Origin: Folioceros fuciformis
Lineage: Eukaryota
DNA: 31,849 bases
Direction: 5' to 3'
Assembly (NCBI GenBank): GCA_049999805.1
Contig: JBNGIO010006294.1
Span: 377,115 to 408,963 of the forward strand
In this document: piece by piece, positions 9,218 to 29,083 of the stretch
Layout of the letters: each line of letters begins with the position of its first letter
Position numbering within the stretch: position 1 is the stretch's first letter
Notes under the pieces: model-generated
Database searches by the model: none
Told to the model about the DNA's origin: nothing
Seen by the model: only the letters and a program-made list of their open reading frames with translations
Translations under genes and position numbers: made by a program

Positions 9218-9775
9218 AGTATGTATGTGCATGCATTCTTGTCATCTATACTCGTAGGCCGCTAGGGCAAACCTCGATAAATGAGGACCTCGTTGAGTTA
9301 ATGTTGGGCTAATGTAAATGTTGGATTATGAAGTGTTCCTATAACTCGACATGCAAATTTCTAAGACATTTCATAAGGTTGGTGGTGCGTGCGTGAGCTT
9401 TCAAGAATGGCCCAATCCCACGAAAGCTAAGGGCGGGCATGGGCTCAGCAGAAATGATAGCAAAGGGAAAGGGAAAGGCAAGTTCAAGCAAGGTCCTACC
9501 CAATAGCAACAATTGTTGCAGCAACACTCTCCACAGTTTCTAAAGATAATAGTGAAGGGGTTGTAGGAGGGCCAAGTCTCGAGGCTATTGATGTTGTTGG
9601 GGATGGATAGTGTGTAGTTCGTTTTGGCTGTCTTGCAAAATCCGTGTCCATAGAACATGTCCACAAGTGAAGATCGATCAATATTAAGCAGTAGGTTGGT
9701 TGTGAACTTGGGCAGTCGGCATCGATCGAGCATTGAAACCCAATGCAGTTCGAAGGCTGTTGAACAAGCAAGACA

Positions 9776-12417
9776 ATGGTGATGGGAATTGACCTGATTG
9801 GGAAGTACAAGCGGGGGGCCCACTTACGGGTCCTCCCTTGGAATGTGAGAGGTTTGGGCGGTTGGTCTAAATCCACCTCTAAGTGTCGTAGGTTGCAGCA
9901 TCTCCTGCGAGAGGACATCACCTGGGATGTGGTTTGTCTGCAGGAACACAAACTTTCGGCAAATCACATACAACGAATCAAAAAGCTGTTTCTGCCAGGG
10001 CACTTAATGTGGGTCCGGGAGAGAGCAGCAGAGGAAGGAGCTAGTACTAACCCTAGAGAGTATGAGTTGGCCACGAGGGGAGGCATCTCTATCATGGTCC
10101 ATCCAGAGCAAGCCCAAAACGTTCTGGAGACAGAAGATTTGGGAAGGTTTGTGTGGGTGGTGTTGCAGACTCCCCAAGGCCCCCTGGGCATCTATAATGT
10201 TTATGCCCCCAATGTGGGGTCGGAGAGGAGTCTCTTATGGAGTCGTCTAGTGAACATCTGAGTGATCGGATACTATGGATTATGGCGGGCAACTTCAACT
10301 TTGTTGAAAGACGAGAGGACATCCAAGGGGACAGTGAGGTGGACATTGAGAGGGTGCACTTATCCTGGCAAGAGCTAAGAGACACTAACTTTAATGTGCA
10401 GGATCTGTGGCTGGCTCTTCTGGCGCAAGGTCTTCAAGACTCTCTCAAGTTCAGCTGGTCCAATCAGCAGCCGGCGTCTTGTGGGGCTCGAAGGCTGGAT
10501 AGGTTCTACGTTCCCACTATGTGCCTACCATATGTGCAGGAGTATAGTATTTTGGCTGGTACAGTGCTATCAGATCATCACTTGATCAGCTTGCTTTTAC
10601 AGCTCTCTCCCGGAGACCTCCGACACAAAAGGGACAAGAGAGGGTTTCGGATGAATACGTCTCTCCTAGCGGAAGAAGGGTGTATGAGCGCATTAAGAGC
10701 ATATGGCAAAGTATAGAACAAGGAGATAAGCCGGTAGTGCAAAGGCTTATGAGCGCGAATACTGAGGCCACTACCTTTCTGAGGAGGCTGGGCTCACAGC
10801 GCAAGAAAGAAAAAGCCCGGTTAGAGGACTTCCTTCGAGATGAATTGGGTTTCGTCCAAAGAGAAGGAGAAGTACGGGCGCTGACTGGGGAAGAGGAAGG
10901 TAGGCTCCGGGAAATTCAGTGCAATCTTGCAAAGCTAGAAGAGGATAGAGCGAGGGGCTGGTACAAGAGGGCTAAAGTGAAGTGGGTGCAAGAAGGAGAC
11001 TGCCCCTCTAAGTTCTTCTTCGACAAAGTGGCAGCGAATTGGCATAAGTCAAGAATCCCCGCGCTCCCCGATGCGCAGGGCATCATGCAAGACTCCCTTA
11101 GTGGCTTGAAAAAACAGTTCACTTGCTTTTATGTTGGAATTTTTGCAAGTCTCGGAAAGCTGGCAGGATGAGAGGACCTTTAGCACTCGACCTACGGTCA
11201 ATTTTCTGCTAAAGTGACAAAGGCTCAACGTACGACTCTTGACAAACCTTTCACAGCCGCGGCGGTGGTGCAAGCGCTCAAGGAGATGCCGAGGAACAAA
11301 TCTCTAGGGCAAGATGGAATCCCTCCTGAGTTTCTAGCTTGGGGATGGGAATTTATGGGGCCGCTCTTCATGGAGGCAGTCAACATGATATGTGAGGAAG
11401 GAAGTATGAGCCCATGGTTTAACCTAGGCCTCATTTCCCTTCTACCTAAACAGGATGCTAGTCTTTCCATTGCTAATTGGCGACCCATTACCCTCCTTAC
11501 GACCACTTCCAAAGTGATTGCCGAAGTCTTAGCAAACAAGCTCAAGCCCTTTTTGGATGACTGGTTGGAGGTGGAGCAACGGGGCTTCATCCAGAACAGG
11601 TGTATTCTAGATAACCTACTGCTTTTGCGTGAGGCTAAGTTTAATGCCCTATCTCAATGCAAGCCGGCAGTGTTTATCTCCTTAGATTTTTACAAGGCTT
11701 CTGATTCGGTTGAATGGCACTTTCTATAGAGATGTGTGAGAAGCTTTGGTCAGGTAACAACTTCTGCAGATGGATTGCAATTCTCTGTGAGGACGCAGGT
11801 GCAATGGTCTCTGTGAATGGCTCCTTTACTGACAGGTTTGATATCAAGCGATCGGTACGTCAAGGATGCCCTCTGGCCCCGTTCCCATTCATCATTGTCA
11901 CTGACTTTCTTTTGCGGGCAGTCAAGCAAGACCCAAGGATTGAAGGCATTCAGAATCCTAACGGCTCGCAGTTGCGTATCTTGGCTTTCGTTGATGATAC
12001 CCTGTTATTCTCATCTGCAGATACGACGACCTCAACAGCCTTGCTCTCCCACGTACAGACCATTGGTCAGCTATCACGGTGCAATGTGAATTGGAGCAAG
12101 ACTAGGATGATGTGTGTTAACATGCAGGGGGAGCCACCCGACAATATCAGACACATTATAAGGGTCCAGCCCGGCTCGTCACACAAGTACCTAGGCCTAC
12201 CATTTCAAGAAGAGGATGAGAATGCTGAGATTGGTAAATATGTCTGCCTTAGGTTCATCAGGAAAGCAATCAATTTACACCTTTGGATCTTAGTCTTGCA
12301 GGCAAAATTGTGGACATCAACCATGTTTTAACCGCTTCCCTATGGTACTACCTGTTCTTATGGGCCCCTAGCAAGGTAGACCTGAGGAGGTTGCAGTAGA
12401 TTATATCCAACTTCTAA
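9776..12417 (+). mobile_element. Degenerate L1-clade non-LTR retrotransposon (LINE) ORF2: AP endonuclease + reverse transcriptase, 3' truncated
   Basis: EN motifs WNVRGLG, VCLQEHK, NVYAPN, AGNFN, RLDRFY, LSDHH; linker WVQEGDCPSKFFF; RT motifs KSLGQDGIPPEF, NWRPITLL, QRGFI, SLDFYKASDSVEW, RQGCPLAP, FVDD, KYLGLPF. Several frameshifts and stops. Ends abruptly at IISNF. An ORF1 remnant may lie at ~9400-9770. Confidence 0.93.
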
Positions 12418-12762
12418 CAGGGTCTGTGCCTAACGGTCGTATTCCGCCAAATCTGGCTTCGGGTCATTTTTGGCGTCATTTTTCGTGGCACATATCCAGA
12501 AATCATGCTATTTGGTGTGGATTACCCCCAAATCTATGGAAAAACGGTCACGAAAAACTTTTTAATCGTCATGTTTACCCAGAAACTAGCCGAAATTGCA
12601 GGTTACCAACAGTAAAACTTTTTGATCTTATCCAGTTCCACGGTTGGTCTGACACTACCGCCTGCATGTAGACAGAATGCTATTTTTTGAAATTGGAATT
12701 ACTTGAAACTGTAAAATGTTAAAGCTTTTTCAATAACATTCATTTAACCTTGGACGGTAGGA

Positions 12763-12817
12763 GTGCGCCGGTCTATCAGCGTACTCCTTGCTTAAGTCCA
12801 CCGGTAGACCAGCGCAC
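12763..12817. repeat. Two degenerate copies of the 22-bp palindrome near the transposon left end
   Basis: GTGCGCCGGT-CT-ATCAGCGTAC (12763) and GTCCACCGGT-AG-ACCAGCGCAC (12796). Confidence 0.8.
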
Positions 12818-13067
12818 TCCTTCCGGTGAAGCGATGAGTAGTAGGTGAACACCTAGATCGGGTCTGGGGAAAGTGCATCAGAACTATTCAAAATGAGTTA
12901 GGGTTAGGCCAGCGCACAGTTAGGGCGAGGTAGCCTTTCTCTATGCGCACCCCCACAAGGGTGCTTATGAATAGCCAACCACAACTCTTTGCCAACAGTG
13001 TTCATGTGTATAAAGTATGGAATACATGAAAGTACTTAACCGGTATAGCCTACGTTTCATCAAGTAG

Positions 13068-16000
13068 TCATGCGAGGTCGTCATCAAGTTCATGTACATG
13101 GTTTTCTTGATCTTGCCTAAGCACGTACAAGTTCTTTCTGATAAGGTTTCGAGTGCGAGCGTGTAGCTGTTTTTGACGAGTCAACTCAAATCCATACACT
13201 GAAATAAAAGTGTTCGCGACATATATTGTGTCAATATGCTTCCAAAGTCTTCTGCTTGGCCGTCGCTTACGTCGTCGTGTAGAACCCATGACCAGGTCTT
13301 CATTCGGCAATATCATCTCCTCTTGATAATGGCCTTCAAATGCATCTGAACATTTCGTGACCCACCAATGGACTGTGATATTTTGAGTGTCATTTTCCTT
13401 CTGCGTGTCCAGCACTTTCGTGATCCAAAAAGGCCTGTTGTCTACGTCTGTCTCGCATGGGACAGCAATCATGTGCCCTACTTCAATCTCTGATACATCT
13501 CTACTGAAGCTGTCAACATCGTTCCCAACGTGTGTGTCTTTTCTATACGGTCCCACATACATATCTCTTCTAGGAACTTCTTGTATCCGTGGGTTTTCCA
13601 ACACCAAAGCATCTGGCACGAGTAACGGGGTATTTACCAACTCTGCCTCGTCGCGATTATACCATCGCCATGGCCAATCATGGTCTTGCTCTACACCCGA
13701 ATTATTAATTTGAACGATGGCCTCTTACTCGGCCCAAAATGAATCCCACCAGATGTCTTTGCCCACACCTAAGTGCTGACGTAATTTGAACTCCAATCTT
13801 GATCGAATTTGGCACAGATTATATCCTGGGACATTGTCTGTAATACTCTTTTGTTTCCTACTCCTCACCTGCAGATGCATCAGTGGAGTGGCTTTCATAT
13901 TCCTCTCCGGAACTGCTTTCAGGAGTTCTATCCCTTCATCAGGCGACCAGTATCGATTAGTGGAATACTGTTTCCCTCTCATAACTGTAACAGGTCCACG
14001 ATCTCCGCGACTCTCTTTTGTGATCTTGAACTGGTGTTGAAACGATATATTATGCAGCTGATGAACCGTTGCAACACTCTGATATCCTGCTTTCCCATAA
14101 GGTATAGGCCAAACAAACTTTCTGAAGTCTGGAACCTCCTTCACCTCTTCAACATCTGGCACGGGGGTATAAGCGCCCTGCATAAGTGCAATCAATTTTG
14201 GTAAAGTCAAAGCTTCTTTCCGACCGAGTGCTGTTGAAAACCTGGAAAACATCTGATCAACCTGGTCATGCGTATGCCCTACTAGCAGGAATTTGACTTT
14301 TATCTTCAAGAAAACCCGCTTTTCCACTAACATATTCAAATAAGAAAACAGCAACGCGTTTTTGTTCTCGCGTGCCGTGTTGTCTAGCTGCAAATAAAGT
14401 ACTCCAGGTAGCAAGCCTTCATACTCGTGAATCACGCGCTGAATAATTGATATTGTTAAGTTCGCATCGTTTCGAATGTTGCCGAACTCGATGAAGAGCT
14501 TTGGTGTCAAAGTCTTGTTGTATACCATACACCCTACTACATAGACATCAATGAGGCCAACATCCGCTAAATCTTTGGGCACTCGTACGAAATGGGGCAG
14601 GTGAGTCTTCTGTTGATCCATTCCATCTACTGATATTCCAATGTACTTTTCGGTGTCGTCATAACATTTGACCCGATGTTTTATACTCTTCTCGTGCTCT
14701 GCCTTCAGTCTTTTTGGATGAAGCTTCAAGTCAGATTCAAAGACCTCTACAAAAAACATCAAATAGTTTACATTAGAATATGGAAAAAGTGTGCGACCTA
14801 GTGGGTGTGCACCGATAGACCGGCGCACATCCGCCACAAAGCAGTCAATCCCTTCATTTCTTGCGTGGGAGAGGAAGGTGTGCGCCGGTAGACCGACGCA
14901 CACCCGCCACAAAGCAGTCAGTCCCTTCATTTCTTGAGTGGGAGAGGAAGGTGTGCGCCGGTAGACTAGCGCACACCCAGCAATGCGCAGTCACCATGAC
15001 AACTGAAGGGTTCGAAACAAGGGCAGTGCGCCGGTCTACCGGCGCACTCACAACATCATTGGGAAGAAAAAGTGCGCCGGTCAACCGGCGCACTTCACAT
15101 GATGGAATGCAGTGCGCCGGTCGACTGGCGCACGTCATATGCCTACATGAAACGTAACTGAAGAAACACGCTCACATACCTTGTTCTTCTTATCAGACTC
15201 GGCTCTGATGTTTCTTTTCAGGTAATCGCAGGTTGTACATAGCGAAAACCTGTTTGTCTTTGGAATTCGCACCTTGTAGAAATGTGAAGCCCACAATTGA
15301 CAGAAATAACAATAAGACACACTGTACTGTTTCGCTTGTTGCATTTGCTGCTTGTACTCCCTAAAAATTTCCCCTTTTGTGTACGAGTCGGGAAGATGGT
15401 ACACTTCAATGTTTGGCATGCGTTCTACAAGGAGGCAGAACAATTGATCCATCCAAACATAAGCAGCCATAGCGTGATCCCAGGTGCACTTTTCTGCGTG
15501 GACAGAGCCCACCCACATAATGTTTTTCAAAGCTCTTTCTTTTGCTGCCTTGTACCTGTTCGCACCGATGCAGAAAACTCGTCTGAACACGACCCGACAA
15601 CAGCGTATCTTTACAGATCCAATGAGAAAGGGTCCATCCGAAGTGCGCTTGACATCAAACCGGGTCTGCAAATACATTTCTTTCTCTATCCTGCACAGGT
15701 TTAGAAATGGATCTCTCAAATCCCAAAAGCTTGGTTTGCCTAAGGATCTGAGACACTGCTTTGCACAACATAGTCTCCGGTAATCTGAAGAAATGCGGAT
15801 TTCAGAACACTTTTCCTCAGGTATAGTCGAGATTTGTTTCTTCCGACTGCATCGATGATCTCCAAGAACTTTAATCAAGGACTCGGATGATGGTTTTAGA
15901 TTGTATGTTTTTCGCGGCGATGTGCCCGTCGTCTTGACCGCGTCTACGGCCAAGACATCCCCTGCTTCGGCTTCGGGCTGGAAGCGCTCTCTGGTCGATT

Positions 16001-16139
16001 CTTCTAGTACCCCGTGTCCACTCGCAATTCCTTCTGCATTCGAATCATCAAAGTCCCCGTGCAAGATTGTGCGATATGCATTTCGCTTCAGAGGTGTTGT
16101 TTTCATGGTCGCTGGCATGAAAGGATACTGGCTTCTCAA
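13068..16139 (-). pseudogene. DDD transposase (DUF7869/Sola-like), two exons (~16139 or further upstream to 15180; ~14747-13068), one premature stop at 13725-13727
   Basis: VRIPKTNRFSLCTTC...H zinc-binding-like motif, then ISVDGMDQQKTHLP, LYLQLDNTARENKN and FLLVGHTHDQVDQMFS (three candidate catalytic Asp). Strong donor AAG|GTATGT at 15179; acceptor near 14747 has uncertain phase. ORF 13068-13640 is in frame beyond the TAA. True start uncertain (in-frame sequence continues towards ~16440). Confidence 0.85.
14805..15133. repeat. Six copies of the 22-bp palindrome inside the transposase intron, including a 73-bp tandem unit
   Basis: Copies start at 14807, 14880, 14953, 15026 (73-bp period), 15072 and 15112. 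Confidence 0.92.
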
Positions 16140-16739
16140 AGGGCTTGCCGGCGTATGGATGCCGTCGAGAAGACTCAGACATACAGGAGACTGTCGGAAG
16201 TCGATGTCGATTCCTTCAGAATCATCGGGAACAAAGCAGCAAGATGGGAACAGCGAAGATCAGACTATCAACTTCAACAAACGAAAGCCCGTCTTTGACC
16301 GAAGTCGTGGCCTACCTTGAGAAATGAACTCCGATGCTTTCGTAGGCACCATGTCGCATGAGAAAGAAGCCTGCCAATCCATGCCAATGTCGCATTGATT
16401 AACCGGAAAGGAGCTTCCTTGCAGGATGCATTCTACCGTCACTCACCGATTCATTGAATACAGGTTACGCTGACATAATTAAGCCGCCTTTTTGATATGA
16501 ACGTTTGATCACTAAAACAAGTAGCTGTTGTTTATCGGGAACGGCACCTTTAATCGTTGTTCTAACATAAATGCAGAAGACGTTGCTCAAACACGCTTCC
16601 TATTTCAGGCAACACAAATTCAACTTCACAGTTGACTTTAAATCTTTTCGTTCAAAGCTTTAGTCGTTGCTGAGTGCTTCTGCATCAACTCTGGTCATTT
16701 GAAGTTTTCTCGTTCGCTTCCTCTCCTGCGCAGGCGAAA

Positions 16740-17496
16740 ATGGCAGCAGGCCGGCGAAGCAACAAGCATCTGAATGCAGCTATTGATCTTGAAGTATTGG
16801 AGGCACCATCACGGCCAAGGATACCAAGACAGGGGGCGAAAGCTTTAGCTCACGCTGCATCTGACCCCATCATCGAGAGAGAGAACCAGCGGCGACCATC
16901 GATCACAGTAGGAGATGTTACACCATAACCAACAGCTCGCGCATTGAGGAAAGACAATTCAGGAGGGAGCATCCGTGCCTCGAACAGCAAAGCTAGCGAG
17001 GTTAATGTTAACCAGGTGCCTATAAATGTGACTCATGGTGGCAGCACTAGTGGTAGTTAGAACCACAATATTCCAAATGCGTACAACTTCATTGAGCGCT
17101 TGAAGCTAAAGAAACTTGAAGACACGCTTGCTAAAAGGTTCAACACAGACAAAGAGTGGTTTTTAGTGATGGAAGAGGAGCCAGCAGACTACAGTTTGCC
17201 GTGGGTGCCGCCCCATGGCTCTGTGGATTAATGGTTTCCAAGGCCTGCCGGACGATGAGGCAGGGAGGCCTGGGTGGATTCTCTGTGCATCCATTGACGG
17301 CGTCGAACACAAAACACACGTCAATTTCATTTGCACGCGGCACCCACCAAGCCATATCATCGATGAGTACGATAGCCACAACCTGATTGTGGTGAATTTT
17401 GTGAAAGCTGTGCCACGGCGATGTGAACCGATGTGGCTAAAAACGGCTTTGAAAGATTGTCTGAGTGTGCAAGATGTTAGTATATGCCTAGCTTAG
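16740..17496 (+). pseudogene. Disrupted ORF of unknown function inside the transposon (separate gene or 5' exon of the ParB-MTase gene)
   Basis: From ATG 16740 the frame reads through TAA (16926) and TAG (17058) into YNFIERLKLKKLEDTLAKRFNTDKEWFLVM. It then shifts frame to LWINGFQGLPDDEAGRPGWILCASIDG. Possible donor GTTAGT at 17476. Confidence 0.45.
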
Positions 17497-17500
17497 CCCT

Positions 17501-17509
17501 AAACCCTAA
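17501..17509 (+). promoter_or_regulatory. Telo-box (AAACCCTAA) upstream of the acidic exon of the ParB-MTase gene
   Basis: gccctaaaccctaa read directly; telo-boxes are common near plant transcription starts. Confidence 0.35.
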
Positions 17510-17562
17510 TTACTGGCTTGTTCTGGGTGTAACAGGGAGGTGAATAGTTCTGCCAAACTATC

Positions 17563-20481
17563 TTGCGATTCTATGCCGATTGCGTCTTCGAGAACCGCGC
17601 GCTTGCATTCAGGATCGCCGGGGAGCGCCAGCAAATTGCGACAATCGCAGATTTTACTGCCAGCGCAGGAAGGGTGACAAGGAAGCAAGTGGAGATGCCG
17701 GGCTTGCAGCCAGAACTATCTGAAGAGGAGTTGCGGGAGGTTGAGGAGCTGAGCTCAGACGAGGAGAAGGAGATGGGAGGTTACTCCTCGACAGAAGACA
17801 GCCTCAACGAGGCCATGGAAGGTGGAAGAGGCTTACGGTCTGACCGGGAAGAAGAGGAGGAATCGCCTGTGGAGGTCACGCCCCCCAGAACGAAGCAGAA
17901 GATGGTGCTCCGGCCTACCGGCACCCCAGTCATGAAGAAGAAGAAGACGGCCATGACCTCTCTTGCGAGGTCTTGAAAAAGAGCCACAAGTGGGTATCTT
18001 GCTAATCGGTCTGCAATGTGGTCGGGTCTGGTTTCCTTACTGTCTGGTTTCTTGTCGTGAATATCTGTTGCAACAATTGCTGTGGTGTCATTGCAGCTTC
18101 ACCACAGAAGAGGAAGAGCAGGTCGACAGGGTCTGCCAACGAGGCCTCTATGAGGCGGAAGCAGAGGCGGCAGGCTCAAGGGCCTACTTTCGAGGACGAG
18201 CCGCCCCGAACAGTTGTTCGATCTTCATGTGGATATCCTCCACCCTACAAGCTATATCACAGCAGATGCCCAGATTCATGAGGTTGACGAAGCTTGGATG
18301 AAGTGCCTGGTCAGGCAAATGCAGACAGGGTCTGTGAAGGAAGGTATTTTATCTCTCCTATGCATGATTGATCCGAAACAAGCTTGCAAGAAGGAGGATG
18401 TTTTGCTCGAGAAGATAACAACACAGGGGTACCAGATGGGAGTGCTTGGGGGCAACCATTGCTTTGCAGCTATGCAGAAGCTGCATCAGATGTACCTAGG
18501 AGAAGACAAGTGCGAGTGGATGGAAGGGCATGTTTATGCAGGCCTCACAAATGAGGAAATGCGAGTCCTTGCTGTTGATCACAATGTGTTTGCCGACAAA
18601 CGAAAGAGGATGGGCTTCATCAAACAAGTAAGATATATCCATGATGAGTTGGATATTTTCTACAGGAGCCACGACCTGGACAAGAAGCCACCAGTGAAGT
18701 GGAAATTCAATATGTACAGGTTGTTGGGGATGACTGATGAGGCAGGTGACCCAAGGGATATTGACTGGGTCCAGAAGATGGTGGATAGACAGACATTGCC
18801 ATATCGGGTGGCAAGGTGCAGCGGAGTCCTGTGGGAGGACGTGGACATGATCTTTAAGATGTGGGAGAGGAGCGAGCTTCCGGAATAGGTAGTAGGAGGG
18901 AGCACAGGCACGAAGAAGCGGGCGAAAGCGAAGAGGAAGCCAGGGAAGCTGGCATAGCTTCCAGTAGCACTCCGATTGCTGACGAGTCCACCAAGAAGGT
19001 AATGACAATGCAGGGCAGGCCTTGGAGGGCCTTTCAAGGGGTTCCAGCAAGAGCAAAAGGAGAAGAAATGTTGATCGCAGTGACGCAGAAGGTCATACAG
19101 GGGAAGCTCCAGCTAAAGGATATGGACGCAGAGGTGGGCAAGAGGAAGAAGATCCATATGATATAGCACGCATTTCGCATAGCGTTGAAGTGCGCGACCT
19201 TCGAAGAAGCCGAACAGATCTACCCCAAGCACACCGAAGACGCGAATCTTCTTCGATTCCAGACGGCTTTCGCGAAAGTGGTAAGTTTCCTTTTATTTCC
19301 TTCTTCAATCTCGACTAACCTTGGACACTCACCAGATTGGCTTGGTCAGTGGCTGGAGTGCACCGGTCTACCGGTGCACTACAGCCCTTATGAAGGACTA
19401 GGGCCAGACTGTGGCCGGAGTGCGCCGGTCTACCGGCGCACTCCAAGCATCCTGGCTGCTTAGGCGCAGCATGTGGCTGGAGTGCGCCGGTAGACCGGCG
19501 CACTCCAGCCCGCGCTTGGCCTGTGCCGTTCATATGGGCTAGAGTGCGCCGGTCGACTGGCGCACTCCTGCCATTGACCAAGCCAATGGTGCAGTCTAAC
19601 CATTTTGAAGAATGAATGCTACATAGTTTGCTGACGAATGTATTTATTGGCAGAAACCTACAGATATAAACGACTTGGAATCGTTGCCCAAGTCGTTCCA
19701 GGATTACGTGTACTCAGCACGGAACTGAAAGCGGTTAGAAGAGGAGAAGCAGAAGCTAGCGGACGCCGACATGGATGCTGGGTTGTCAGAGTTCAGAGTG
19801 TCCAACAGCAACCAAAAAACCAAGTATCAAGTGATGTAGTGAAGCGTTCTCGAGATGAGTGGTTTTTTGGTAAAGAGACCTTATACCCTATTGTTCGCTG
19901 ATTTGTCTCGTAGGCTTCAACGACATGATTACGACACGCAGTTGACTAACGAGGAACTTGAAGATATGATCAAGGGGTTTTCGGAATGCACGACTAGCAA
20001 TGTTTATCGAGGGGTGCTTATGCATGGAGTTGACCTGATCTCACAAGCGAGAGAGGCACTTAGGCCGTGGTGCAAGAAAGGCACCATACAGACACTGGTT
20101 TGGGAAAAGACGAATATTCCGCCGAATGCAAGGGCAGTGGAGACTGTGGAGTACTTGACAGTTGGCAGTGCAGACCACTTGGAAGCTTAGACCACCAAAG
20201 CAGCCTTATTCGCGAATCAGGGTTTTCTACTGCCAAGAGTGATAAGGCATGGTGCTGTTGTGAAAAAGCACCTTTTTCACTTGGCAGATTCGATGGTCGT
20301 CTCCCCATACCAGAAGCCGTTGGGGCTTATGGGGATGCTAGTGAACATGTTTTCGATTGAAGGGGACTGGGTCGTGGATGCCTGTGCAGGATCCGGATCA
20401 TTCCTTCAGGCTGCTATTCAGAGAGGGAGGCATGTAGTCGCGATGGACGTCGATATACGTTGCACGACTAGACGTAGCTAA
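17563..20481 (+). pseudogene. Spliced gene: acidic/NLS region + ParB/Sulfiredoxin-like domain + helical linker + beta-class N4-cytosine/N6-adenine DNA methyltransferase (N6_N4_Mtase-like). Introns 17990-18096 and 19281-19653
   Basis: ParB-like: QIHEVDEAWMKCLVRQMQTG and YQMGVLGGNHCFAAMQKL. MTase in beta order: YTLLFADLSR (motif IV position, 19900), TLVWEKTN...VEYLTVG, SPYQKPLGLMGMLVNMFSIEGDWVVDACAGSGSFLQAAIQRGRHVVAMDVD (motif I at 20377-20400). Both introns preserve frame. In-frame stops at 17974, 18886, 19164, 19726, 19837, 19840 and 20188, plus frameshifts near 18210 and 18900-18960. Start codon uncertain. Confidence 0.82.
19336..19587. repeat. Four-copy palindrome array with exact 62-bp period, enclosed by an 18-bp inverted repeat, inside intron 2 of the ParB-MTase gene
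   Basis: 22-bp cores at 19358, 19420, 19482 and 19544, each extending to ~36 bp (GGCTGGA...TCCAGCC) with 26-bp spacers. Flanks attggcttggtcagtggc / gccattgaccaagccaat. Confidence 0.92.
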
Positions 20482-20870
20482 CCAGGCTCAGAGGGGAGCG
20501 ATTCCGAGGAAGACTACAACAACCGTGGGATTGATGTGGCCACGATACATGTGAGCGGGTGCCTTGTAGGGGTACCATACCTGCTTGCCCACAACATCCT
20601 ACCGGTATGGAGAATGGAGAAACCTTTAAGAGGATGACCTCATTGCAAGCTCAAAAGAGCAAGTACATGTAATAATCCATTATAAAACTTGCTGCACACA
20701 TGTTACAAAATGTGTCACAAACCACCCTATTATGCAATAATAATACCGCATTCGAATTAAAGCATATTACTAACCTCATGTGCAATGAAGAAGATTGTCT
20801 TAGTAGAAGCTTATCATGAGCTGCACCTTAAGCAAGATAACCTTAATACAAGGCACTGAAATGAGGTGTT

Positions 20871-21012
20871 TACTGAAGTTAATAACACTTATGGCCTTCT
20901 TGATGTGATTGTGAAAAAAATGTAAGATGAAAATGGAAAGTACTAAAGTTAATAACACTTATGGTTTTCTTGATGTGATTGTGAAAAAAATGTAAGATGA
21001 AAATGGAAAGTA
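20871..21012. repeat. 70-bp tandem duplication (2 copies)
   Basis: tact(g/a)aagttaataacacttatgg...gatgaaaatggaaag at 20871 and 20941. Confidence 0.9.
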
Positions 21013-21080
21013 TTAGAAACGATATCAAAAGGCGAAAGAGAGTAAAATAGCAATGGGGAGTATAATACCATTTGGCTACA

Positions 21081-21211
21081 CTTTCATGTATTATGATTGA
21101 TCTTGGAGACAAGAACCTAAAATTCCAAGGGATTCTAGGTGTCTTACCTTTATGCATTATCATTGATCTTGGAGAGAAGAACCCAAAATTCCAAGGATTC
21201 TAAGCATCTTA
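21081..21211. repeat. ~66-bp diverged tandem duplication (2 copies)
   Basis: attgatcttggaga(c/g)aagaacc(t/c)aaaattccaagg occurs twice. Confidence 0.8.
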
Positions 21212-21727
21212 TATGTTGGTAAGTCAAAGGCTTTGCAAGATACAGATAACTCACTTTCAAATGTTACAAAGAGTGGAACTTAGTTGACTTTGAGCTAGCT
21301 TTAGATTTGGTGATTTACTTCGTGCATCTTATTATGTAATTTCTAATTTTGATGATTTCGCTCAAGAACAATGTGTGGAATCCCAAGTAAGCCAAACATG
21401 TATACAATACATGTGATACTAGAGAAGGCAAAAAAGTCAAGCATAGAAGTTCCTCTACTTTGAGAGTTAGAAAGAAAATTGCAACAGACCTTTTCTTTTT
21501 AAACTATTGATCGAAGATTGAAGTTGCTATGTTGACAAACGAAGCCTTACTTGAAATTTAATGTTGTTCGTTCGATTTTCATCCTTATTTGTGATTGAAT
21601 CAATAAGAAATACAACATTTGCTAATTGCTCCTTTGAAATCATACTAGTATACTATGCCATAGGCAAAGCTCCTACCCATACATATCCGCAATAATATGA
21701 GGCGGCAACCCCATAACATGACAACAA

Positions 21728-21830
21728 GTTCCATAATTGTTGAGCAAAACATGTAGGGGCGTAGCGTATCAACCAAAAGAGGTTCCATAATTGAAGCACA
21801 AAACATGTAGGGGTGTAGGATATCAATCCA
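21728..21830. repeat. ~54-bp diverged tandem duplication (2 copies)
   Basis: gttccataattg...aaaacatgtagggg(c/t)gtag occurs twice. Confidence 0.75.
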
Positions 21831-23370: not shown

Positions 23371-24405
23371 ATGTCGCACACCCGAGTTTGCCTGGTCGCT
23401 GGATATCCCTTGCTTATCTTCCTCTTGCTCTCGACACGGGTCGTTTCAGTGTACCATCTGGTGTCCAAGGCAAAACCAAGTGCGGTGGACGGAAAGGTGC
23501 TGTATCCCACGGTTGAAGTGCTGAATGGAGCGGCTACAGTGTGGCAAATTCCACTACAATGCAAGGCAGTGCTGTTCATAGCGCATCCAAGCGGCGCGGA
23601 CCCTTTCAGGTTCTGGGATCCCCACCCCAGGTGCCCCCAGTGCACCGGCTACCCGGAGCATCGGGCTCTGGTTCAGGCTGCCTTGTCGTGGGGATATGCG
23701 GTTATTGCAATCGGCAGTTTGGAGCATGAATGGCAGTACCGGGACCTGGACAGCTCGCGGGATTTCCAGAATGTGGAGTTTATCTTGGGCAGCTGGGCTG
23801 TTGAGCGTGGGCTGGAGATGCTCCCTGTTACCGCACTGGGGATTTCCCTAGGCGGGATCTTCGTGGCTGCCGCTGCCGATCGCATCGGGTTCGACGCGGT
23901 GGGGCTGATGATCTCGTCCGGTTTGGAGGGAGGGTTCCGGGACGTTGCGCCCTTCCCGCCCGTTATCTTTCTGCACATGCCTAAGGACTGGAGGATCCAG
24001 CCTGCGGTGGTAGCAGCAGTGGGAGAGCTGGAGGCCCAAGGCATTCCGGCCGCGGCAGTGGAGTGCTTGGAGTTTGCTGTCCACGCAGGTCTCTTCGCTG
24101 AACGCATTCATGAAATTGATTGGGAGCACTCTGCGAAGATTCGGGTTGCATTGCAGGATGTGGGAGTTCTGGACGGTGCGGGGTATGTGGTGGATAGCTA
24201 CGCAGAGAGAGACTGGAGGAGCGCTGTGAAGGAGGTGGTGAAAGAGATTTCATCGGACCTGGAGCTTACTGTGGAGCGCATTGCACAGGAACTGAATCTT
24301 GCCTATGCGTTTCATGCCACAACTAGCTTGAAGTCGCGCGAGTTGTTTGAGTGGTTGGATTCGAAAGGGCGGATGCTTTCCCAGCGGGAAGAGAAACTGA
24401 GGTAG
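23371..24405 (+). CDS. Conserved plant protein with predicted alpha/beta-hydrolase fold and N-terminal hydrophobic anchor/signal, 344 aa, single coding exon
   Basis: Intact ORF; WQIP..KAVLFIAH..FWD..CPQC.GYPE family-type motif, GISLG nucleophile elbow, FLHMPKD, C-terminal AYAFHATTS. Probable 5'UTR intron acceptor at 23330; telo-box near 22484. Confidence 0.8.
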   Translation: MSHTRVCLVAGYPLLIFLLLSTRVVSVYHLVSKAKPSAVDGKVLYPTVEVLNGAATVWQIPLQCKAVLFIAHPSGADPFRFWDPHPRCPQCTGYPEHRALVQAALSWGYAVIAIGSLEHEWQYRDLDSSRDFQNVEFILGSWAVERGLEMLPVTALGISLGGIFVAAAADRIGFDAVGLMISSGLEGGFRDVAPFPPVIFLHMPKDWRIQPAVVAAVGELEAQGIPAAAVECLEFAVHAGLFAERIHEIDWEHSAKIRVALQDVGVLDGAGYVVDSYAERDWRSAVKEVVKEISSDLELTVERIAQELNLAYAFHATTSLKSRELFEWLDSKGRMLSQREEKLR

Positions 24406-24472
24406 ATTGGTTGGTGCTGTGACTACAACAGCGGATGCACAGGCTCAGGGACAAGATCGAACCTGTGCTCAG

Positions 24473-25566
24473 TTACACAACTTTTTTCACCTCCTGCAGC
24501 TTCTTCTTGTCATGCAACCCGAACATCTCTTCGAATAAGTACTCCCGCAGCCATGACGGAGAGTAGTAGAGGACGTAGAACAGTGTCGAAAGGTGTCCAA
24601 ACACGACGGTCCTGGGACTGTTCGTTTTCTGGACAGCTTCAAGGATTTTCCGAGCCAAATCCGTACTCGGTGTTGATTTCGATGACTGAGAGCCAACAGC
24701 CCGCTTTTCAATGACAGTATCATATGGTTGGTACAACTTCAAACCAGGCAGATTTTGTTTCGATCTGAGTGCTTGCTTTCCAATGTTGGAAATGATGGCC
24801 CCCGGTGCAACGAGGATGACCTGTATGTCGAACGGTTTCAGCTCCAACCTGTGCGATCTGGAACTGATCAGAGGTTCTGGAAATGCATTTACGCTCAGGT
24901 TTTCATCATCAACGCCTCAGAGTACCTCAAAGTCTCGGTGAAAGAGTGCACTGCTGCTTTGGTTGACGCATAAACACCTGCCCAAGGGGCAGGACAGAAG
25001 GCAGAGATGCTCCCAATGTTCACAATCTTCCCTTTCCGTCTGGCTGCCATGTGCGGCACCACTGCTCGGATGAGGGAGAGTGGACCTGCAATGTAGCGGA
25101 TCAGGAAAACCGAACGATCTCGCGATACACATGCAAGGTATACATGTTCCAGCGCAACAGATTGTCTCCGCATTTCACTCCAAGCAACAGGCACTAGTTT
25201 CTTAACACAATCTGGGGAAGAGGTATGTAGTCACCTACCATACACATTGGTCTTGTAGCACCTCTCTAGCATGTCGTGGGGAACCTCAGCAAGAGGCCCG
25301 ATACACTGTGTCCCAGCATTGTTAATGAGCACATCTATGTGCCCAAACTTGGCCACCACGGTGTCCACCGTTTCTTCAATCACAGACTGCTCTGCAGTCA
25401 CGTCAAGCTGGAGCAACTCCACGTCTGGATACTGCTCCAACGACTTCATCCACTCCACGGAGAGGTCAGTTGCCACAACTGTGAATCCTGCACTTGCAAA
25501 CACGAGGCACAGGGCATTGCCGATGCCACCGTCTGAGCAACCTGTGATCAGCACAACCTGCTTCAT
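24473..25566 (-). CDS. Classical short-chain dehydrogenase/reductase (AYR1-like), copy A, 287 aa; exons 25566-25239, 25085-24926, 24848-24473
   Basis: TGCSDGGIG, DVLINNAG, IVNIGSIS, YASTK catalytic motif, LELKPFDIQVILVAPGAI; canonical GT-AG introns, in frame (864 nt). Confidence 0.92.
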
Positions 25567-26589: not shown

Positions 26590-26910
26590 AGCTGAGGCAT
26601 CTTCCTGGCTGCAAATGCTGACCGGATTGCGCTGAATCGTGGGGGAGGGCTTATAAATTCGCGCTGTTGCGCGCAGGATGCAGGGACAGGACATTCCGGC
26701 AGCTGCAGTTACATGCCTGGAGTCGCACTCCGGTCAGATCTACGAGGATTCATTGGATGGTTGGGGAGTAGTCCGCAAGGCTAGGCTTTGGGCTGCATTC
26801 CATGATGTGGACCAGATGGCAGGGACTGGAGTAGCGTTTCGGAGGGAGCTGATGAAAGCGACTTCACCTCAACTTGAGCTTTCATTACACAGGAACTGAA
26901 ATGCTTTCCC
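26590..26910 (+). pseudogene. Decayed partial copy of the alpha/beta-hydrolase gene at 23371-24405
   Basis: GIFLAANADRIAL vs GIFVAAAADRIGF; QGQDIPAAAVTCLE vs EAQGIPAAAVECLE; ARLWAAFHDVDQMAGTG vs AKIRVALQDVGVLDGAG; RELMKATSPQLELSL vs KEVVKEISSDLELTV. Internal deletions present. Confidence 0.75.
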
Positions 26911-26978
26911 AGCTGGAAGGGGAACTGAGGGCTCACCGCGCCGTTCAGGGTACGGGGCACGACCGAAGGTGTGCCCAA

Positions 26979-28132
26979 TTACACAGCTTTCTTCACCTCC
27001 TCTAGCACCTTCTTGTCATGCAACCCGAACATTCTCGCGAATAAGTAGTCCCGGAGCCATGAAGGAGCGTAGTAGAGGACGTAGAAGAGGGTGGAAAGAT
27101 GGCCAAACACCAGGTTGCGGGGACTGCTCTGTTTCAGGACTGCTTCAAGGGTCTTGCGAGCCAATTCCGCGCTTGGTGTTGATTTCGCTGATTGAGAGAC
27201 CATAGCGCGGTTGTGAATATGTGTGTCATACGGTTGGAACAGCTTCAATCCTGTTAGACTTTCTTTTGACCTGACTGCCTGCCTTCCCATGTTGGAAGTA
27301 ATGGCCCCTGGTGCAACGAGGATGACCTGTATTCCGAATGGTTGCAGCTCCAACCTGTGATACGGGAACACTTGGGTTCAAGAACCGCGTGTATGGACAG
27401 GACATGTTTCCACATGGACAACCTGCAGGTAGAATTACCTCAGAGTTTCGGTTAGAGAATGCATTGCTGCTTTGGAGGACGCGTAAACACCTGCCCAGGG
27501 GGCAGGACAGAAGGCACTGATGCTACCAACGTTCACAATCTTTCCTCCTTTCCGCCTGGCAGCCATATGAGGAACCACTGCTCGAATGAGGGATAGTGGA
27601 CCTGCAAGGAGGCGGATCAGACAGTCACCACCACCACCAGGACAAGCACTCCCTTCGGGCAACGATTGGAGTTGCAGGCAGAGAAAAGAAAGTAGGCATA
27701 TCCCAGAGCTACAGCATGTCCAATCATCTGCCGTAAACACTTCTTGCTGCTCAGCTAGAAATCAAACAACGCCGAGGGAAGGGAAGATGCAAGTAGTCAA
27801 TCACCAAACACGTTGGTCTTGTAGCACCTCTCTAGCATGTCGTGCGGGACCTCAGCCAGAGGTCCGATACACTGTGTCCCAGCATTGTTTATGAGGACGT
27901 CGATGTGCCCAAACTTGTCCACCACAGATTCTACCGTCTCCTCGATTACAGCCTGCTCTGCAGTCACGTCCAGCTGAAGCAACTCCACGTCCTGTATCTG
28001 CTCCAACGACTTCATCGATTCCAGGGAGCGTGCGGTTGCCACAACCTTGAAGCCTGCATATGCAAACTCTACAGCCAGGGCATGGCCGATGCCACCGTCT
28101 GAACATCCCGTGATCACCACAACCTCCTTCAT
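26979..28132 (-). CDS. Classical short-chain dehydrogenase/reductase (AYR1-like), copy B, 288 aa; exons 28132-27805, 27601-27439, 27354-26979
   Basis: TGCSDGGIG, ATARS, DVLINNAG, YASSK; same exon structure as copy A, in frame (867 nt). Confidence 0.92.
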
Positions 28133-29083
28133 CACCTCGATTGCGTGGAAACAGGGCGGTCCACAATCGGGTTCAGTGATGTGTACGATTCTCTCGCATA
28201 TAATAGATATACGAACACGGACATGATGAAAGTTAGTGAAAAAGGTAGGGTAAATTCTCTTGTACTTGCTATTCAAAGACCCAGGATTAAACCTTACCCA
28301 ACAGGGCCGATATTTGAGTTTTACAATTACACTTCTTTCCTCCGATGTAAGAGCTGTTAGGCAACGCTCACACAGGTTTGGCTCCCCCTTGTCTCCGGGG
28401 TACCGATTTCCGGTCGTGTTGCAACAGAATGGTGCTGGGCCTGGTCGCGCAAGCCGTGCTTCAGGCTGTAACGGAGCTTGTCTTGTGGGAGTCGGCAGGG
28501 ATGGCATTTTCCAGCAGGTTGATGTAGTGGATGACCGGCGGGGGGAGTTGATGGAAGGGAGCACTAGGCAGGAAGAAGCAGGTGATGCAGGCAGAGCGAG
28601 GGCGCGTGAAAGTGCGGGTGAGTGCACTGCTTGTGGTGTGGGGATGTGTGCCCCTTTGCTCTTGTGCTGTGCAGCCCTAAACGGTAGAGTGTGCAATGAG
28701 AGCTGGCGGTGAGATATTGTCATTCTGCCGGGAAACTGTCGTCGACGGGGGTAATTGGGGTTGGAGCCAGGCCTTTGGAATTTCAACTCGTGCTCGTCGT
28801 CGCCGTCCTCGTCAGCTTCTTATGCTGCCGGCCCCTGTCTTGTATTGTGACAAGCTTCATGTGGTTGTGGGAAAGCAAGCGCAGAAAATTCGCACCCAGC
28901 TCGCGCGACAGGAGAGCTGGGCGGCAGGAGCACGAGCTCCAGGGCAAGAATTCGAGCTCCCCGTTCCTGTCCTCGTCGCTCTCTGCCACACGCATTGTGA
29001 TCAGGAAGGTTTCCTTATGATTCAAGAAATCTGCAACGGACTCAAGTCTGCCGCCTTTGTAAAAGGTTTTGTGGGCGAGAGGG

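What the first reader, a model, noticed from the sequence alone, without database searches (positions are those of the whole stretch)
12763..19565. Twelve copies of a 22-bp palindrome confined to the transposon's non-coding DNA
Seen: GTGCGCCGGT-NN-ACCGGCGCAC at 12763, 12796, 14807, 14880, 14953, 15026, 15072, 15112, 19358, 19420, 19482 and 19544. That is two near the left end, six in the transposase intron and four in the ParB-MTase intron, with none noticed elsewhere. The core is conserved while flanks differ between clusters, which argues for selection on the motif rather than simple tandem slippage. Inference: binding sites for a dimeric element-encoded protein (parS-like loading sites for the ParB-like fusion, or transposase enhancer sites), or hairpins in intron RNA.
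Basis: partly seen in the sequence, partly recalled or inferred. Interest (0 to 1): 0.85.

Follow-up and report, generated by a model that had tools for sequence, protein, structure and literature searches.

The report
Palindrome arrays in a ParB-methylase transposon
A multi-copy plant-lineage DNA transposon carries three arrays of a conserved 28-bp palindrome in its introns and 3' non-coding DNA, most likely docking sites for one of its own proteins, an arrangement so far only noted in passing for algal transposons.

Summary
All 12 sites are at the stated coordinates: 4 are exact and 8 have 1-3 mismatches, against 0 expected by chance. The true unit is a 28-bp palindrome, GGAGTGCGCCGGT-NN-ACCGGCGCACTCC.

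The three clusters lie 251 bp past the transposase stop, inside the transposase intron, and inside the intron of a ParB-fold/DNA-methylase gene.

The arrays grew by tandem and inverted duplication. Their spacers have since drifted to 35-65% identity, while the palindromes stay 79-100% identical. That pattern argues for sequence-specific constraint.

The "ParB-like" label is confirmed by fold for the N-terminal domain only (Z 11.6). No ParB-type DNA-binding domain was shown.

This copy is a decayed pseudogene of a high-copy family. Its left end is not defined, so "near the left end" is unsupported.

A separate abundant MITE is not supported by contig depth, but that evidence is weak.

Published work on red and brown algal transposons already notes ParB-like accessory genes, and inverted-repeat arrays beside them, as a hypothesis. 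This is therefore a new member of a known but untested kind.

Best reading (about 0.4): cis sites for an element-encoded dimeric protein, with the ParB-methylase the favoured candidate.

The parts
12760..12820 (.). Cluster 1: two decayed 28-bp palindromes (starts 12763 and 12796, 3 mismatches each, inverted pair CT|AG). It lies 251 bp beyond the transposase stop.
   Evidence: Another genomic copy reads a better-preserved version with a 10-nt longer spacer (table 5c).
14804..15136 (.). Cluster 2: six palindromes (14807, 14880, 14953, 15026, 15072, 15112) with spacings 73, 73, 73, 46 and 40. It lies inside the transposase intron.
   Evidence: (73-bp period, 2.4 copies).
19336..19587 (.). Cluster 3: four palindromes (19358, 19420, 19482, 19544) spaced 62, 62 and 62. 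The whole cluster forms a foldback with 110-nt arms, 82% complementary. It lies inside the ParB-methylase intron.
   Evidence: (I1).
13068..16259 (-). Transposase gene. It has a DUF7869 (PF25273) RNase-H-like DDE core and one intron at 15179..14745. This copy has an in-frame TAA at 13725-13727.
   Evidence: (E 2e-49). Other copies read G at 13727 (CAA) in 10 contigs of run X1 and 14 of X2, which is all the depth there (table 3).
14745..15179 (-). Transposase intron (GTATGT...AG) that holds cluster 2.
   Evidence: One search gives the frame continuity; homologue P0039 aligns from query residue 287 to 814 across junction residue 360. RNA fold -197.6 kcal/mol, z -9.2.
16740..20550 (+). ParB-fold/DNA-methylase accessory gene, divergent from the transposase. 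It holds the ParB-like ORF 18154-18888, the intron 19281-19653, and methylase motif I at about 20300-20460. Several in-frame stops (19167, 19726, 19837, 20188, 20479) mark it as a decayed copy.
   Evidence: Other copies read C at 19837 (CAG) (table 3).
19281..19653 (+). Phase-0 GT..AG intron that holds cluster 3.
   Evidence: sequence. (HSPs end at 19277-19295 and resume at 19924). One search folded 19283-19653: -229 kcal/mol, z -16.3.
20469..20593 (+). Right terminal segment of the family, with no palindrome. Depth is about 5 times that of the interior, and flanks diverge beyond 20593.
   Evidence: tables 2 and 7. Methylase homology runs to 20550.
9764..12671 (+). LINE-like retrotransposon fragment that abuts cluster 1. 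It is a neighbour, not part of the element.
   Evidence: (RVT_1, E 5e-11 and 2e-13).

Best explanation
The palindromes are family-specific cis-acting DNA sites. They are arrayed in the transcribed non-coding parts of a two-gene DNA transposon: both introns and the region 3' of the transposase. Each 28-bp two-fold symmetric site is most likely recognised sequence-specifically by a dimer of an element-encoded protein.

The favoured candidate is the ParB-fold/methylase accessory protein, which would thereby find and mark or modify its own element. This would work like VANC proteins on VANDAL transposons, or like ParB-family proteins on repeated palindromic centromere sites.

Shown:
- The sites, their confinement to non-coding DNA and their symmetry.
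- Their better conservation relative to the spacers.
- The ParB N-terminal fold and the methylase motif.
- The multi-copy family.

Inferred:
- That a protein binds the sites, and which protein.
- What binding achieves.

My odds: a protein-binding array of any binder, 0.4; the ParB-methylase specifically, about 0.2-0.25.
For: 1. Occurrence. 12 sites against 0 expected, all within the element's non-coding DNA.

2. Differential conservation inside arrays whose units are homologous in register. In cluster 3 the spacers are 19/34 (p 0.0002), 22/34 reverse-complemented (p below 0.0002) and 12/34 identical. The palindromes are 22-28/28 identical. In cluster 2 the third 45-nt spacer is 16/45 identical (p 0.08) while its palindromes remain 19-25/28 identical. 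CpG-rich sequence would be expected to decay faster, not slower.

3. Strict sequence conservation. 11 columns are invariant in 12 of 12 sites, with little compensatory change. This fits base-specific recognition rather than structure alone.

4. Spacing. Spacings of 62 and 73 bp are kept without indels. They are near 6 and 7 helical turns; the 10.4-10.5 bp per turn figure is recalled.

5. The gene next door. It has a ParB N-terminal fold (Foldseek top hits are Noc/ParB/KorB/sulfiredoxin; VIA Z 11.6, rmsd 2.2, 95 aligned; wide search Z 10.1). It is followed by a small helical domain with weak winged-helix-like matches (Z 3-4.8) and a methylase.

6. Other genomic copies cover the clusters and read closer to the ideal motif. 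For example, 14968 A>G in 4 X1 contigs and 6 X2 contigs (table 3). Cluster 1 also appears in a better-preserved variant (table 5c).

7. Published precedent, as hypothesis. [quoted passage not shown] A ParB-like/methyltransferase gene opposite the transposase in Ectocarpus Sola1-1 (PMC12477816, passage). VANC motifs as tandem repeats in VANDAL introns and non-coding regions (PMC5735166, passages).
Against: - No binding data of any kind exist.
- Pfam does not call a ParB domain, even at E up to 5.
- No ParB-type HTH was shown.
- The conserved box reads LGGxHS rather than the arginine-rich ParB box. That comparison rests on a recalled ParB motif (alignment).
- In this copy the methylase motif IV position reads ADLSRR, where two relatives have DAPYG. 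The enzyme may be inactive here or in the whole family.
- The covariation and symmetry test is not significant.
- Only one decayed copy could be read base by base. The family consensus and the genome-wide distribution of the motif were not available.
- Conservation could partly reflect conversion between palindromes.
Confidence: 0.4

Rival explanations
1. The arrays are non-functional foldback or minisatellite DNA. In this reading a nested MITE-like foldback (cluster 3) and tandem repeats accumulated in introns and 3' DNA, where insertions are tolerated. The palindromes look conserved only through youth, hairpin self-correction or conversion.
For: - Cluster 3 is a 110-nt-arm foldback (I1).
- The same 11-mer, TAACCTTGGAC, precedes clusters 1 and 3.
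- TAACC flanks both sides of the foldback.
- The arrays clearly grew by tandem and inverted duplication.
- Contig joints hint at unit-number variation between copies (table 5). Their sides are 21-37 nt, so this is weak.
Against: - Palindromes are far better kept than in-register spacers, despite being CpG-rich in a copy whose decay is transition-driven.
- The identical 28-mer sits in three places with otherwise unrelated flanks.
- There is no depth spike over the palindrome bins. They read 231-363, coding bins read 82-943, and the right terminal segment reads 1965 (table 2). The tool warns that depth is not copy number.
- The target-site duplication is ambiguous.
Confidence: 0.27
2. The function is at the RNA level. 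All three clusters lie in the primary transcripts. The palindromes pair into long intronic double-stranded hairpins that feed small-RNA production, or that control splicing or intron retention of the element's genes.
For: - Predicted intron folds are extreme: -229 kcal/mol with z -16.3, and -197.6 kcal/mol with z -9.2.
- Single units fold as 12-bp stems with 4-nt loops, -16.3 kcal/mol as DNA.
- The clusters sit in two introns and a likely 3' UTR.
Against: - The sequence, not just the pairing, is conserved: 11 invariant columns of 22.
- Only two pairs show double changes, and one of those is a single duplication event.
- A structure-only constraint would allow drift.
- No RNA data exist to test it.
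Confidence: 0.15
3. The palindromes are transposase-binding sites, either subterminal repeats or internal enhancers needed in cis for transposition.
For: - Many DNA transposons carry repeated transposase-binding motifs (general knowledge, recalled).
- The transposase N-terminal 360 residues contain Cys-rich stretches.
- Cluster 1 may lie towards one end of the element.
Against: - There is no palindrome in the last 1 kb before the right terminus at 20593.
- The terminal 125 bp has about 5 times the depth of the interior while the palindrome bins do not (table 2). The apparently abundant shortened derivatives therefore seem to lack the palindromes. This is a weak, depth-based inference.
- Ten of the 12 sites are deep inside the element, in introns.
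- No DNA-binding domain was recognised in the N-terminus by Pfam.
Confidence: 0.1

Closest known systems
Red-algal Plavaka elements with PAG3 (ParB-like N-terminal domain + 2OG oxygenase) and adjacent tandem arrays of inverted repeats (Petroll et al., bioRxiv 10.1101/2025.02.11.637652; passages read)
   Same: - A DNA transposon encodes an accessory protein with a ParB-like N-terminal domain fused to a nucleic-acid-modifying domain.
- Arrays of inverted repeats lie beside or within that gene.
- The authors propose self-binding and self-modification.
- Their best structural match (7BNR) is also among my top hits.
   Different: - The effector domain here is a methylase, not an oxygenase.
- The transposase is a DUF7869 type, not Plavaka.
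- The host is in the streptophyte lineage, judged from relatives.
- The arrays sit inside introns of both genes as well as 3' of the transposase.
- I could not see their repeat sequences, because the supplements were not read.
Ectocarpus Sola1-1_Ec32 accessory gene (ParB-like DNA-binding domain + DNA methyltransferase, opposite strand to the transposase; PMC12477816, passage read)
   Same: The same two-domain accessory protein, and the same divergent layout of two genes on opposite strands.
   Different: - No palindrome arrays are mentioned in the passage I read.
- That element is 21.5 kb, against at least 7.8 kb here.
- Whether the DUF7869 transposase belongs to Sola1 could not be tested, because no Sola1 reference sequence was at hand.
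VANC anti-silencing proteins and their motifs in Arabidopsis VANDAL21/6 (PMC5735166; passages read)
   Same: [quoted passage not shown]
- They are bound by an element-encoded accessory protein.
- The arrays are dynamic between copies.
   Different: - VANC is unrelated to ParB or methylases.
- Its motifs are 8-9 bp, asymmetric and arrayed in one orientation.
- The sites here are 28-bp palindromes.
- The outcome there, loss of methylation, is demonstrated. Here nothing is demonstrated.
Bacterial and plasmid ParB-family centromere sites (parS; F-plasmid sopC with repeated units each holding a palindrome). Recalled from general knowledge, apart from the summary sentence.
   Same: - Arrays of palindromic sites at fixed spacing next to a gene for a ParB-fold protein.
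- The N-terminal domain fold matches ParB, Noc and KorB.
   Different: - This is a eukaryotic nuclear transposon with no ParA partner in the element.
- No ParB-type HTH or CTP-binding arginine box was shown.
- The protein is fused to a methylase, as in phage ParB-methylase genes (PMC4738411, passages).
Foldback and MITE-type elements
   Same: Cluster 3 has long inverted arms built from subrepeats.
   Different: - There is no clear target-site duplication.
- There is no sign of an independent high-copy family in contig depth.
- Clusters 1 and 2 are not foldbacks beyond the palindromes themselves.

Membership tests
Transposon-encoded ParB-like accessory gene with cognate inverted-repeat arrays (algal Plavaka/Sola1 type) | Accessory protein with a ParB-like N-terminal domain | tested here: met
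   AF2 model with pLDDT 86. VIA Z 11.6, rmsd 2.2 A, 95 residues aligned to ParB 7bnk_B/7bnr_A. Wide search Z 10.1 to PadC and 9.4 to KorB. Pfam itself gives no hit.
Transposon-encoded ParB-like accessory gene with cognate inverted-repeat arrays (algal Plavaka/Sola1 type) | Fusion to a DNA-modifying domain | tested here: met
   PF01555 N6_N4_Mtase, E 4.2e-9, in ORF 20191-20481. Relatives carry the ParB-like region and the methylase in one protein in 3 of 19 scanned. tblastn of Chara P0080 covers both parts in order.
Transposon-encoded ParB-like accessory gene with cognate inverted-repeat arrays (algal Plavaka/Sola1 type) | Encoded in a DNA transposon beside a DDE transposase | tested here: met
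   DUF7869 core with an RNase-H-like fold on the opposite strand. The family is multi-copy in the organism's sequencing runs. Both proteins have relatives in Riccia and Adiantum, and the ParB-like one also in Chara.
Transposon-encoded ParB-like accessory gene with cognate inverted-repeat arrays (algal Plavaka/Sola1 type) | Tandem arrays of inverted repeats next to the ParB-like gene | tested here: met
   Four palindromes lie in the gene's own intron, six in the transposase intron and two 3' of the transposase.
Transposon-encoded ParB-like accessory gene with cognate inverted-repeat arrays (algal Plavaka/Sola1 type) | The protein binds the arrays | not testable with these tools
   No protein-DNA prediction or assay was available. 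This is also untested in the published cases, going by the passages read.
Canonical ParB/parS partition system | Central HTH DNA-binding domain of ParB type | tested here: inconclusive
   Residues 154-244 give only weak matches, Z up to 4.8, several of them to winged-helix DNA-binding domains. Foldseek alignments to ParB/Noc span 230-253 columns, but with rmsd of 11-16 A.
Canonical ParB/parS partition system | Arginine-rich CTP-binding box in the N-terminal domain | tested here: inconclusive
   The conserved box in 18 aligned relatives reads VLGGxHS..A. The canonical ParB motif it is compared with is recalled, not from a call.
Canonical ParB/parS partition system | ParA-type ATPase partner | tested here: not met
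   No further ORF of 80 aa or more with a family hit lies between 12746 and 20593, other than the transposase and the ParB-methylase gene.
MITE / foldback element | Terminal inverted repeats | tested here: met
   Met for cluster 3 only: arms 19336-19445 and 19478-19587, 82% complementary.
MITE / foldback element | Target-site duplication and independent dispersed copies | tested here: inconclusive
   TAACC occurs on both sides, but the left copy is part of an 11-mer shared with cluster 1. No depth excess was seen over the cluster, and contig depth is not a copy number.
Sola1 superfamily | Sola1-type transposase and 4-bp AWWT target duplication | not testable with these tools
   No Sola1 reference protein was at hand and the left end is missing. 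The hallmark is taken from PMC3845634 (passage). The flank after 20593 is ACAT, which does not fit AWWT, but one end alone decides nothing.
Marchantia DN4MT1-type N4-cytosine methylases | TSPPY catalytic motif | tested here: not met
   Relatives P0091 and P0088 read DAPYG at motif IV. This copy reads ADLSRR. The TSPPY motif is taken from bioRxiv 10.1101/2021.02.12.428880 (passage).

The most novel reading that the evidence does not exclude
This would be a eukaryotic, transposon-borne ParB-type self-recognition module. Dimers of the ParB-fold/methylase protein would load at the intronic 28-bp palindromes, in the manner of parS or sopC sites, and spread or bridge between the three arrays. From there they would lay down N6-adenine or N4-cytosine methylation over the element's own chromatin. 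That mark would shield the element from the host's 5mC/siRNA silencing, or tag excised copies. If so, the arrays and the protein should co-vary between families found in liverworts, ferns, charophytes and some marine invertebrates.
Probability: 0.15. Interest if true: 0.85.

Novelty: new member of a known kind. Interest (0 to 1): 0.5.

Why it matters
Only one class of transposon, VANDAL with its VANC proteins, is experimentally known to bind and epigenetically alter its own sequence. ParB-like accessory genes have recently been noticed in red and brown algal transposons, with the untested suggestion that they bind nearby inverted-repeat arrays.

This locus adds three things to that picture:
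- The same pairing exists in the streptophyte lineage. Relatives occur in a liverwort, a fern and Chara, and patchily in animals.
- It gives a sharply defined candidate site: a 28-bp palindrome, 12 copies in three arrays.
- It gives internal evidence of constraint, because the palindromes are kept while the in-register spacers have drifted.

That makes the hypothesis directly testable by EMSA or DAP-seq with a single oligonucleotide, and by long-read methylation calling.

If the binder is instead the transposase or a host factor, or if the arrays act as RNA hairpins, the finding is still a clean example of cis elements lodged in transposon introns. It would then be of ordinary interest.

Tried and rejected
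- **Own genome.** None is held, so no genome-wide census was possible.
- **Earlier scan notes.** Nothing found by place, sequence or words.
- **Viral contigs.** 0 matches to the 26-mer pattern. No transposase relative was found among 8 pattern matches.
- **Metagenome contigs.** 19 loci matched. Each has one isolated palindrome, plus an overlapping shifted near-match in 2 loci. Eleven have 69-77% GC, flanks are unrelated, and none forms an array. I judged these unrelated hairpins.
- **Sequencing runs.** No RNA holder was listed, so expression, splicing and small RNAs are untested. Run X4 (RNA is only a guess) laid only on the LINE part.
- **Terminal inverted repeat.** The reverse complement of the right end is absent from the window, and short-word BLAST of both ends found nothing. 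The loose-end consensus to the left of 20469 is also not in the window.
- **ParB-like ORF searches.** The word-index search among longer proteins found none. A PDB sequence-profile search found nothing meaningful. Pfam at E up to 5 found nothing.
- **Protein atlas.** No usable hit for the transposase core.
- **Pair counting.** The first run was mis-registered by 2 columns. The repeat was correct but not significant.
- **Spacer homology.** A harsh local alignment found only two related pairs. The in-register identity test superseded it.
- **CRISPR-like reading.** Equal spacer lengths with unlike spacers suggested this. I rejected it because the spacers are homologous in register, the repeats are perfect palindromes in both orientations, and the setting is a spliceosomal intron.
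- **Kinship with Marchantia 4mC methylases.** Rejected on the catalytic motif.
- **Literature.** Searches for 'DUF7869' (0 papers) and 'DNA transposon' plus 'N6_N4_Mtase' (1 irrelevant paper) found no description of this family. I found no paper describing these palindromes, but I ran only the searches.
- **Supplements.** None were read for any paper. Those of the Bostrychia and Ectocarpus papers may show their repeat sequences.
Full report
**1. The observation**

The pattern GTGCGCCGGT-NN-ACCGGCGCAC matches at exactly the twelve stated starts. Four sites are exact. Eight have 1-3 mismatches. None of 100 dinucleotide-preserving shuffles gave a single match. Of the 21 half-site matches at up to 1 mismatch, 20 lie inside these twelve sites.

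The symmetric unit is longer than reported. In most copies it is 28 bp (GGAGTGCGCCGGT-NN-ACCGGCGCACTCC), and it reaches 36 bp at 19482. The central dinucleotide is CT or AG in 9 of 12 sites, which is the same asymmetric centre in two orientations. Each cluster switches orientation about its middle.

Of the 15 departures from the ideal motif, 14 are transitions and 10 are at CpG.

**2. The setting**

The window is eukaryotic and no genome is held for it.

*Transposase.* It lies on the minus strand at 16259..13068. Its core is Pfam DUF7869 (E 2e-49). The AlphaFold model (pLDDT 84) gives RNase-H-like integrase and transposase matches. One GT..AG intron (15179..14745) interrupts it. A Riccia homologue aligns straight across the junction.

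*Second gene.* It runs divergently on the plus strand from about 16740 to about 20550.
- ORF 18154-18888 has no Pfam hit. With 17 relatives it folds (pLDDT 86) into a ParB/sulfiredoxin N-terminal domain.
- All leading Foldseek hits are Noc, ParB, KorB or sulfiredoxin.
- VIA gives Z 11.6, rmsd 2.2 A, 95 residues to M. xanthus ParB. The search that does not lean on Foldseek gives Z 10.1 and 9.4 to PadC and KorB.
- Helices 154-244 give only weak matches (Z up to 4.8). Several are to winged-helix DNA-binding domains, so a DNA-binding module is possible but not shown.
- Downstream is the motif-I part of an N6_N4 methylase (PF01555, E 4e-9).
- tblastn with Chara, Riccia, Adiantum and Saccoglossus relatives shows the ParB-like and methylase parts in order. 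HSPs end at 19277-19295 and resume at 19924. This fits a phase-0 GT..AG intron at 19281-19653 (sequence).

Cluster 1 lies 251 bp beyond the transposase stop.

**3. This copy and its family**

This copy is dead. It has in-frame stops at 13725, 19167, 19726, 19837, 20188 and 20479.

Laid against contigs of three DNA runs of the same organism label, the stretch 12000-20593 collects about 1900-2200 contig pieces per run at 80% likeness or more. Summed word depth there is 82-1965, against 9-15 in the unique flank beyond 20876 (tables 1-2). The element therefore belongs to a multi-copy family, although the tool warns that depth is not a copy number.

At two of the stops the other copies read sense codons. 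Position 13727 is A>G in 10 X1 contigs and 14 X2 contigs, which is all the depth there. Position 19837 is T>C (table 3).

Flanks diverge after 20593 (table 7), and methylase homology runs to 20550. So 20593 is the right terminus.

No matching inverted repeat exists anywhere in the window. Cluster 1 directly abuts a LINE fragment (RVT_1). The left end is therefore undefined and 'near the left end' is unsupported.

**4. Is the motif independent of the element?**

The decisive census was not possible.

Indirect evidence comes from depth. The three bins holding the clusters have X1 depth 363, 231 and 275. The bins flanking clusters 2 and 3 read 236-595. The terminal 125 bp (20469-20593) spikes to 1965 (table 2). 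A separate abundant MITE carrying the palindrome would be expected to produce such a spike, and none is seen.

Other copies do cover the clusters and read closer to the ideal motif. Examples are 14968 A>G, and a cluster-1 variant whose second palindrome is preserved and whose spacer is 10 nt longer (tables 3 and 5c).

Public metagenome contigs hold the 22-mer at 19 places. Each is an isolated hairpin, 11 of them in contigs of 69-77% GC, and none sits in an array. Viral contigs hold none.

**5. How the arrays arose, and what is conserved**

Cluster 2 starts with a 73-bp tandem repeat. Cluster 3 is a foldback with 110-nt arms.

In-register comparison shows the equal-length spacers are homologous but drifted:
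- Cluster 3: 19/34 identical (p 0.0002), 22/34 reverse-complemented (p below 0.0002), and 12/34.
- Cluster 2: 43/45 for the recent duplicate, but 16/45 (p 0.08) for the third unit.
- Palindromes of the same units: 19-28 of 28 identical.

Between clusters nothing but the palindrome aligns, apart from an 11-mer shared upstream of clusters 1 and 3.

The arrays are thus old duplications in which the CpG-rich palindrome has been held while the rest decayed, and without indels (spacings 62,62,62 and 73,73,73). Eleven of 22 core columns are invariant in all 12 sites. Compensatory change is scarce, and the pairing statistics do not beat shuffles (50 of 500).

This pattern fits base-specific recognition by a two-fold symmetric binder better than a structure-only constraint.

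As RNA, the introns would nevertheless fold into very long hairpins (z -16.3 and -9.2). Single units form 12-bp stems. An RNA role is therefore not excluded.

**6. Mechanism**

I favour cis sites for a dimeric element-encoded protein (0.4). The ParB-fold/methylase protein is the leading candidate (about 0.2-0.25). It would act as a self-recognition device that marks or protects the element.

The absence of palindromes from the right terminal kilobase, together with the lack of a depth excess matching the abundant terminal segment, argues weakly against sites needed in cis by the transposase.

Points against the ParB reading:
- No HTH has been shown.
- The nucleotide-binding box is non-canonical (LGGxHS; the comparison motif is recalled).
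- Motif IV of the methylase reads ADLSRR in this copy, where two relatives have DAPYG.

**7. What is known**

[quoted passage not shown] It is encoded opposite the transposase, and the authors suggest such proteins bind and modify their own transposon (PMC12477816, passage).
[quoted passage not shown] It draws the same inference and notes VANDAL as the only proven case of self-binding and self-modification (passages).
- VANC motifs occur as dynamic tandem repeats in VANDAL introns and non-coding regions (PMC5735166, passages).
- ParB-linked methylases of phage origin in eukaryotes are discussed in PMC4738411 (passages).

Relatives of the ParB-like region here are few: 33 at E up to 1e-3 among 1.84 billion representatives. 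The named ones are from Chara braunii, Riccia sorocarpa, Adiantum nelumboides, Saccoglossus and Lineus. Transposase relatives are named from Riccia, Adiantum, Branchiostoma and Tribonema. This patchy spread fits a mobile family.

I found no paper on DUF7869 or on these palindromes in the searches I ran.

**8. Verdict**

- The finding is a new, well-defined member of a recently noticed but experimentally untested kind.
- Interest is moderate (0.5). It would be high if binding and self-modification were shown.

Noticed in passing
window 13725-13727, 19837-19839: Two of this copy's in-frame stops are C>T changes of Gln codons. Other genomic copies read CAA and CAG at these places (table 3). Intact, possibly active copies may therefore exist elsewhere in the genome.
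   Followed up: partly
window 20469-20593: The last 125 bp before the family's right terminus has about 5 times the summed contig depth of the interior. To its left, 11-12 contigs in each of runs X1 and X2 carry a consistent but different sequence. This looks like shortened, non-autonomous derivatives that share the terminus.
   Followed up: partly
window 19870-19915: At the methylase motif IV position this copy reads ADLSRR, where relatives P0091 and P0088 read DAPYG. The catalytic motif is either lost in this copy or lineage, or my alignment by eye is off.
   Followed up: partly
window 9764-12671: A LINE-like retrotransposon fragment (endonuclease-like and RVT_1 ORFs in several frames) abuts cluster 1. 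It is itself a repeated family, with depth about 350 in run X1.
   Followed up: partly
window 24373-25514 vs 26901-28080: A roughly 2.5-kb tandem duplication at 79-90% identity (repeat families D2, D3, D5, D7, D20). One copy overlaps a short-chain dehydrogenase ORF (adh_short, 27797-28819, minus strand).
   Followed up: no
window 17497-17509, and another copy's cluster-1 spacer (table 5c): Plant-type telomere-like repeats CCCTAAACCCTAA occur inside the element. A related CCCTAAACCC string sits in the longer cluster-1 spacer of another copy.
   Followed up: no
run X3 laid on window 12000-21500: Run X3 shows a large excess of C>T and G>A changes (377 and 382, against about 220 in X1 and X2), with many X3-only conversions. 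It behaves like a bisulfite or enzymatically converted library. Raw reads from it could give the 5mC state of the arrays.
   Followed up: no
window 13068-13724 (minus strand): The transposase C-terminal 218 residues are conserved in homologues (consensus FWxAKV...W) but have no Pfam hit. This may be a chromatin-reader-like module.
   Followed up: no
window 20871-21012, 21080-21196, 21723-21830: Three short tandem duplications (70, 66 and 54 bp) lie in the AT-rich unique flank just right of the element.
   Followed up: no
proteins P0087, P0100, P0107: Relatives of the ParB-like region occur in a nemertean (Lineus) and a hemichordate (Saccoglossus) as well as in streptophytes. This points to a patchy distribution, possibly by horizontal spread.
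   Followed up: partly
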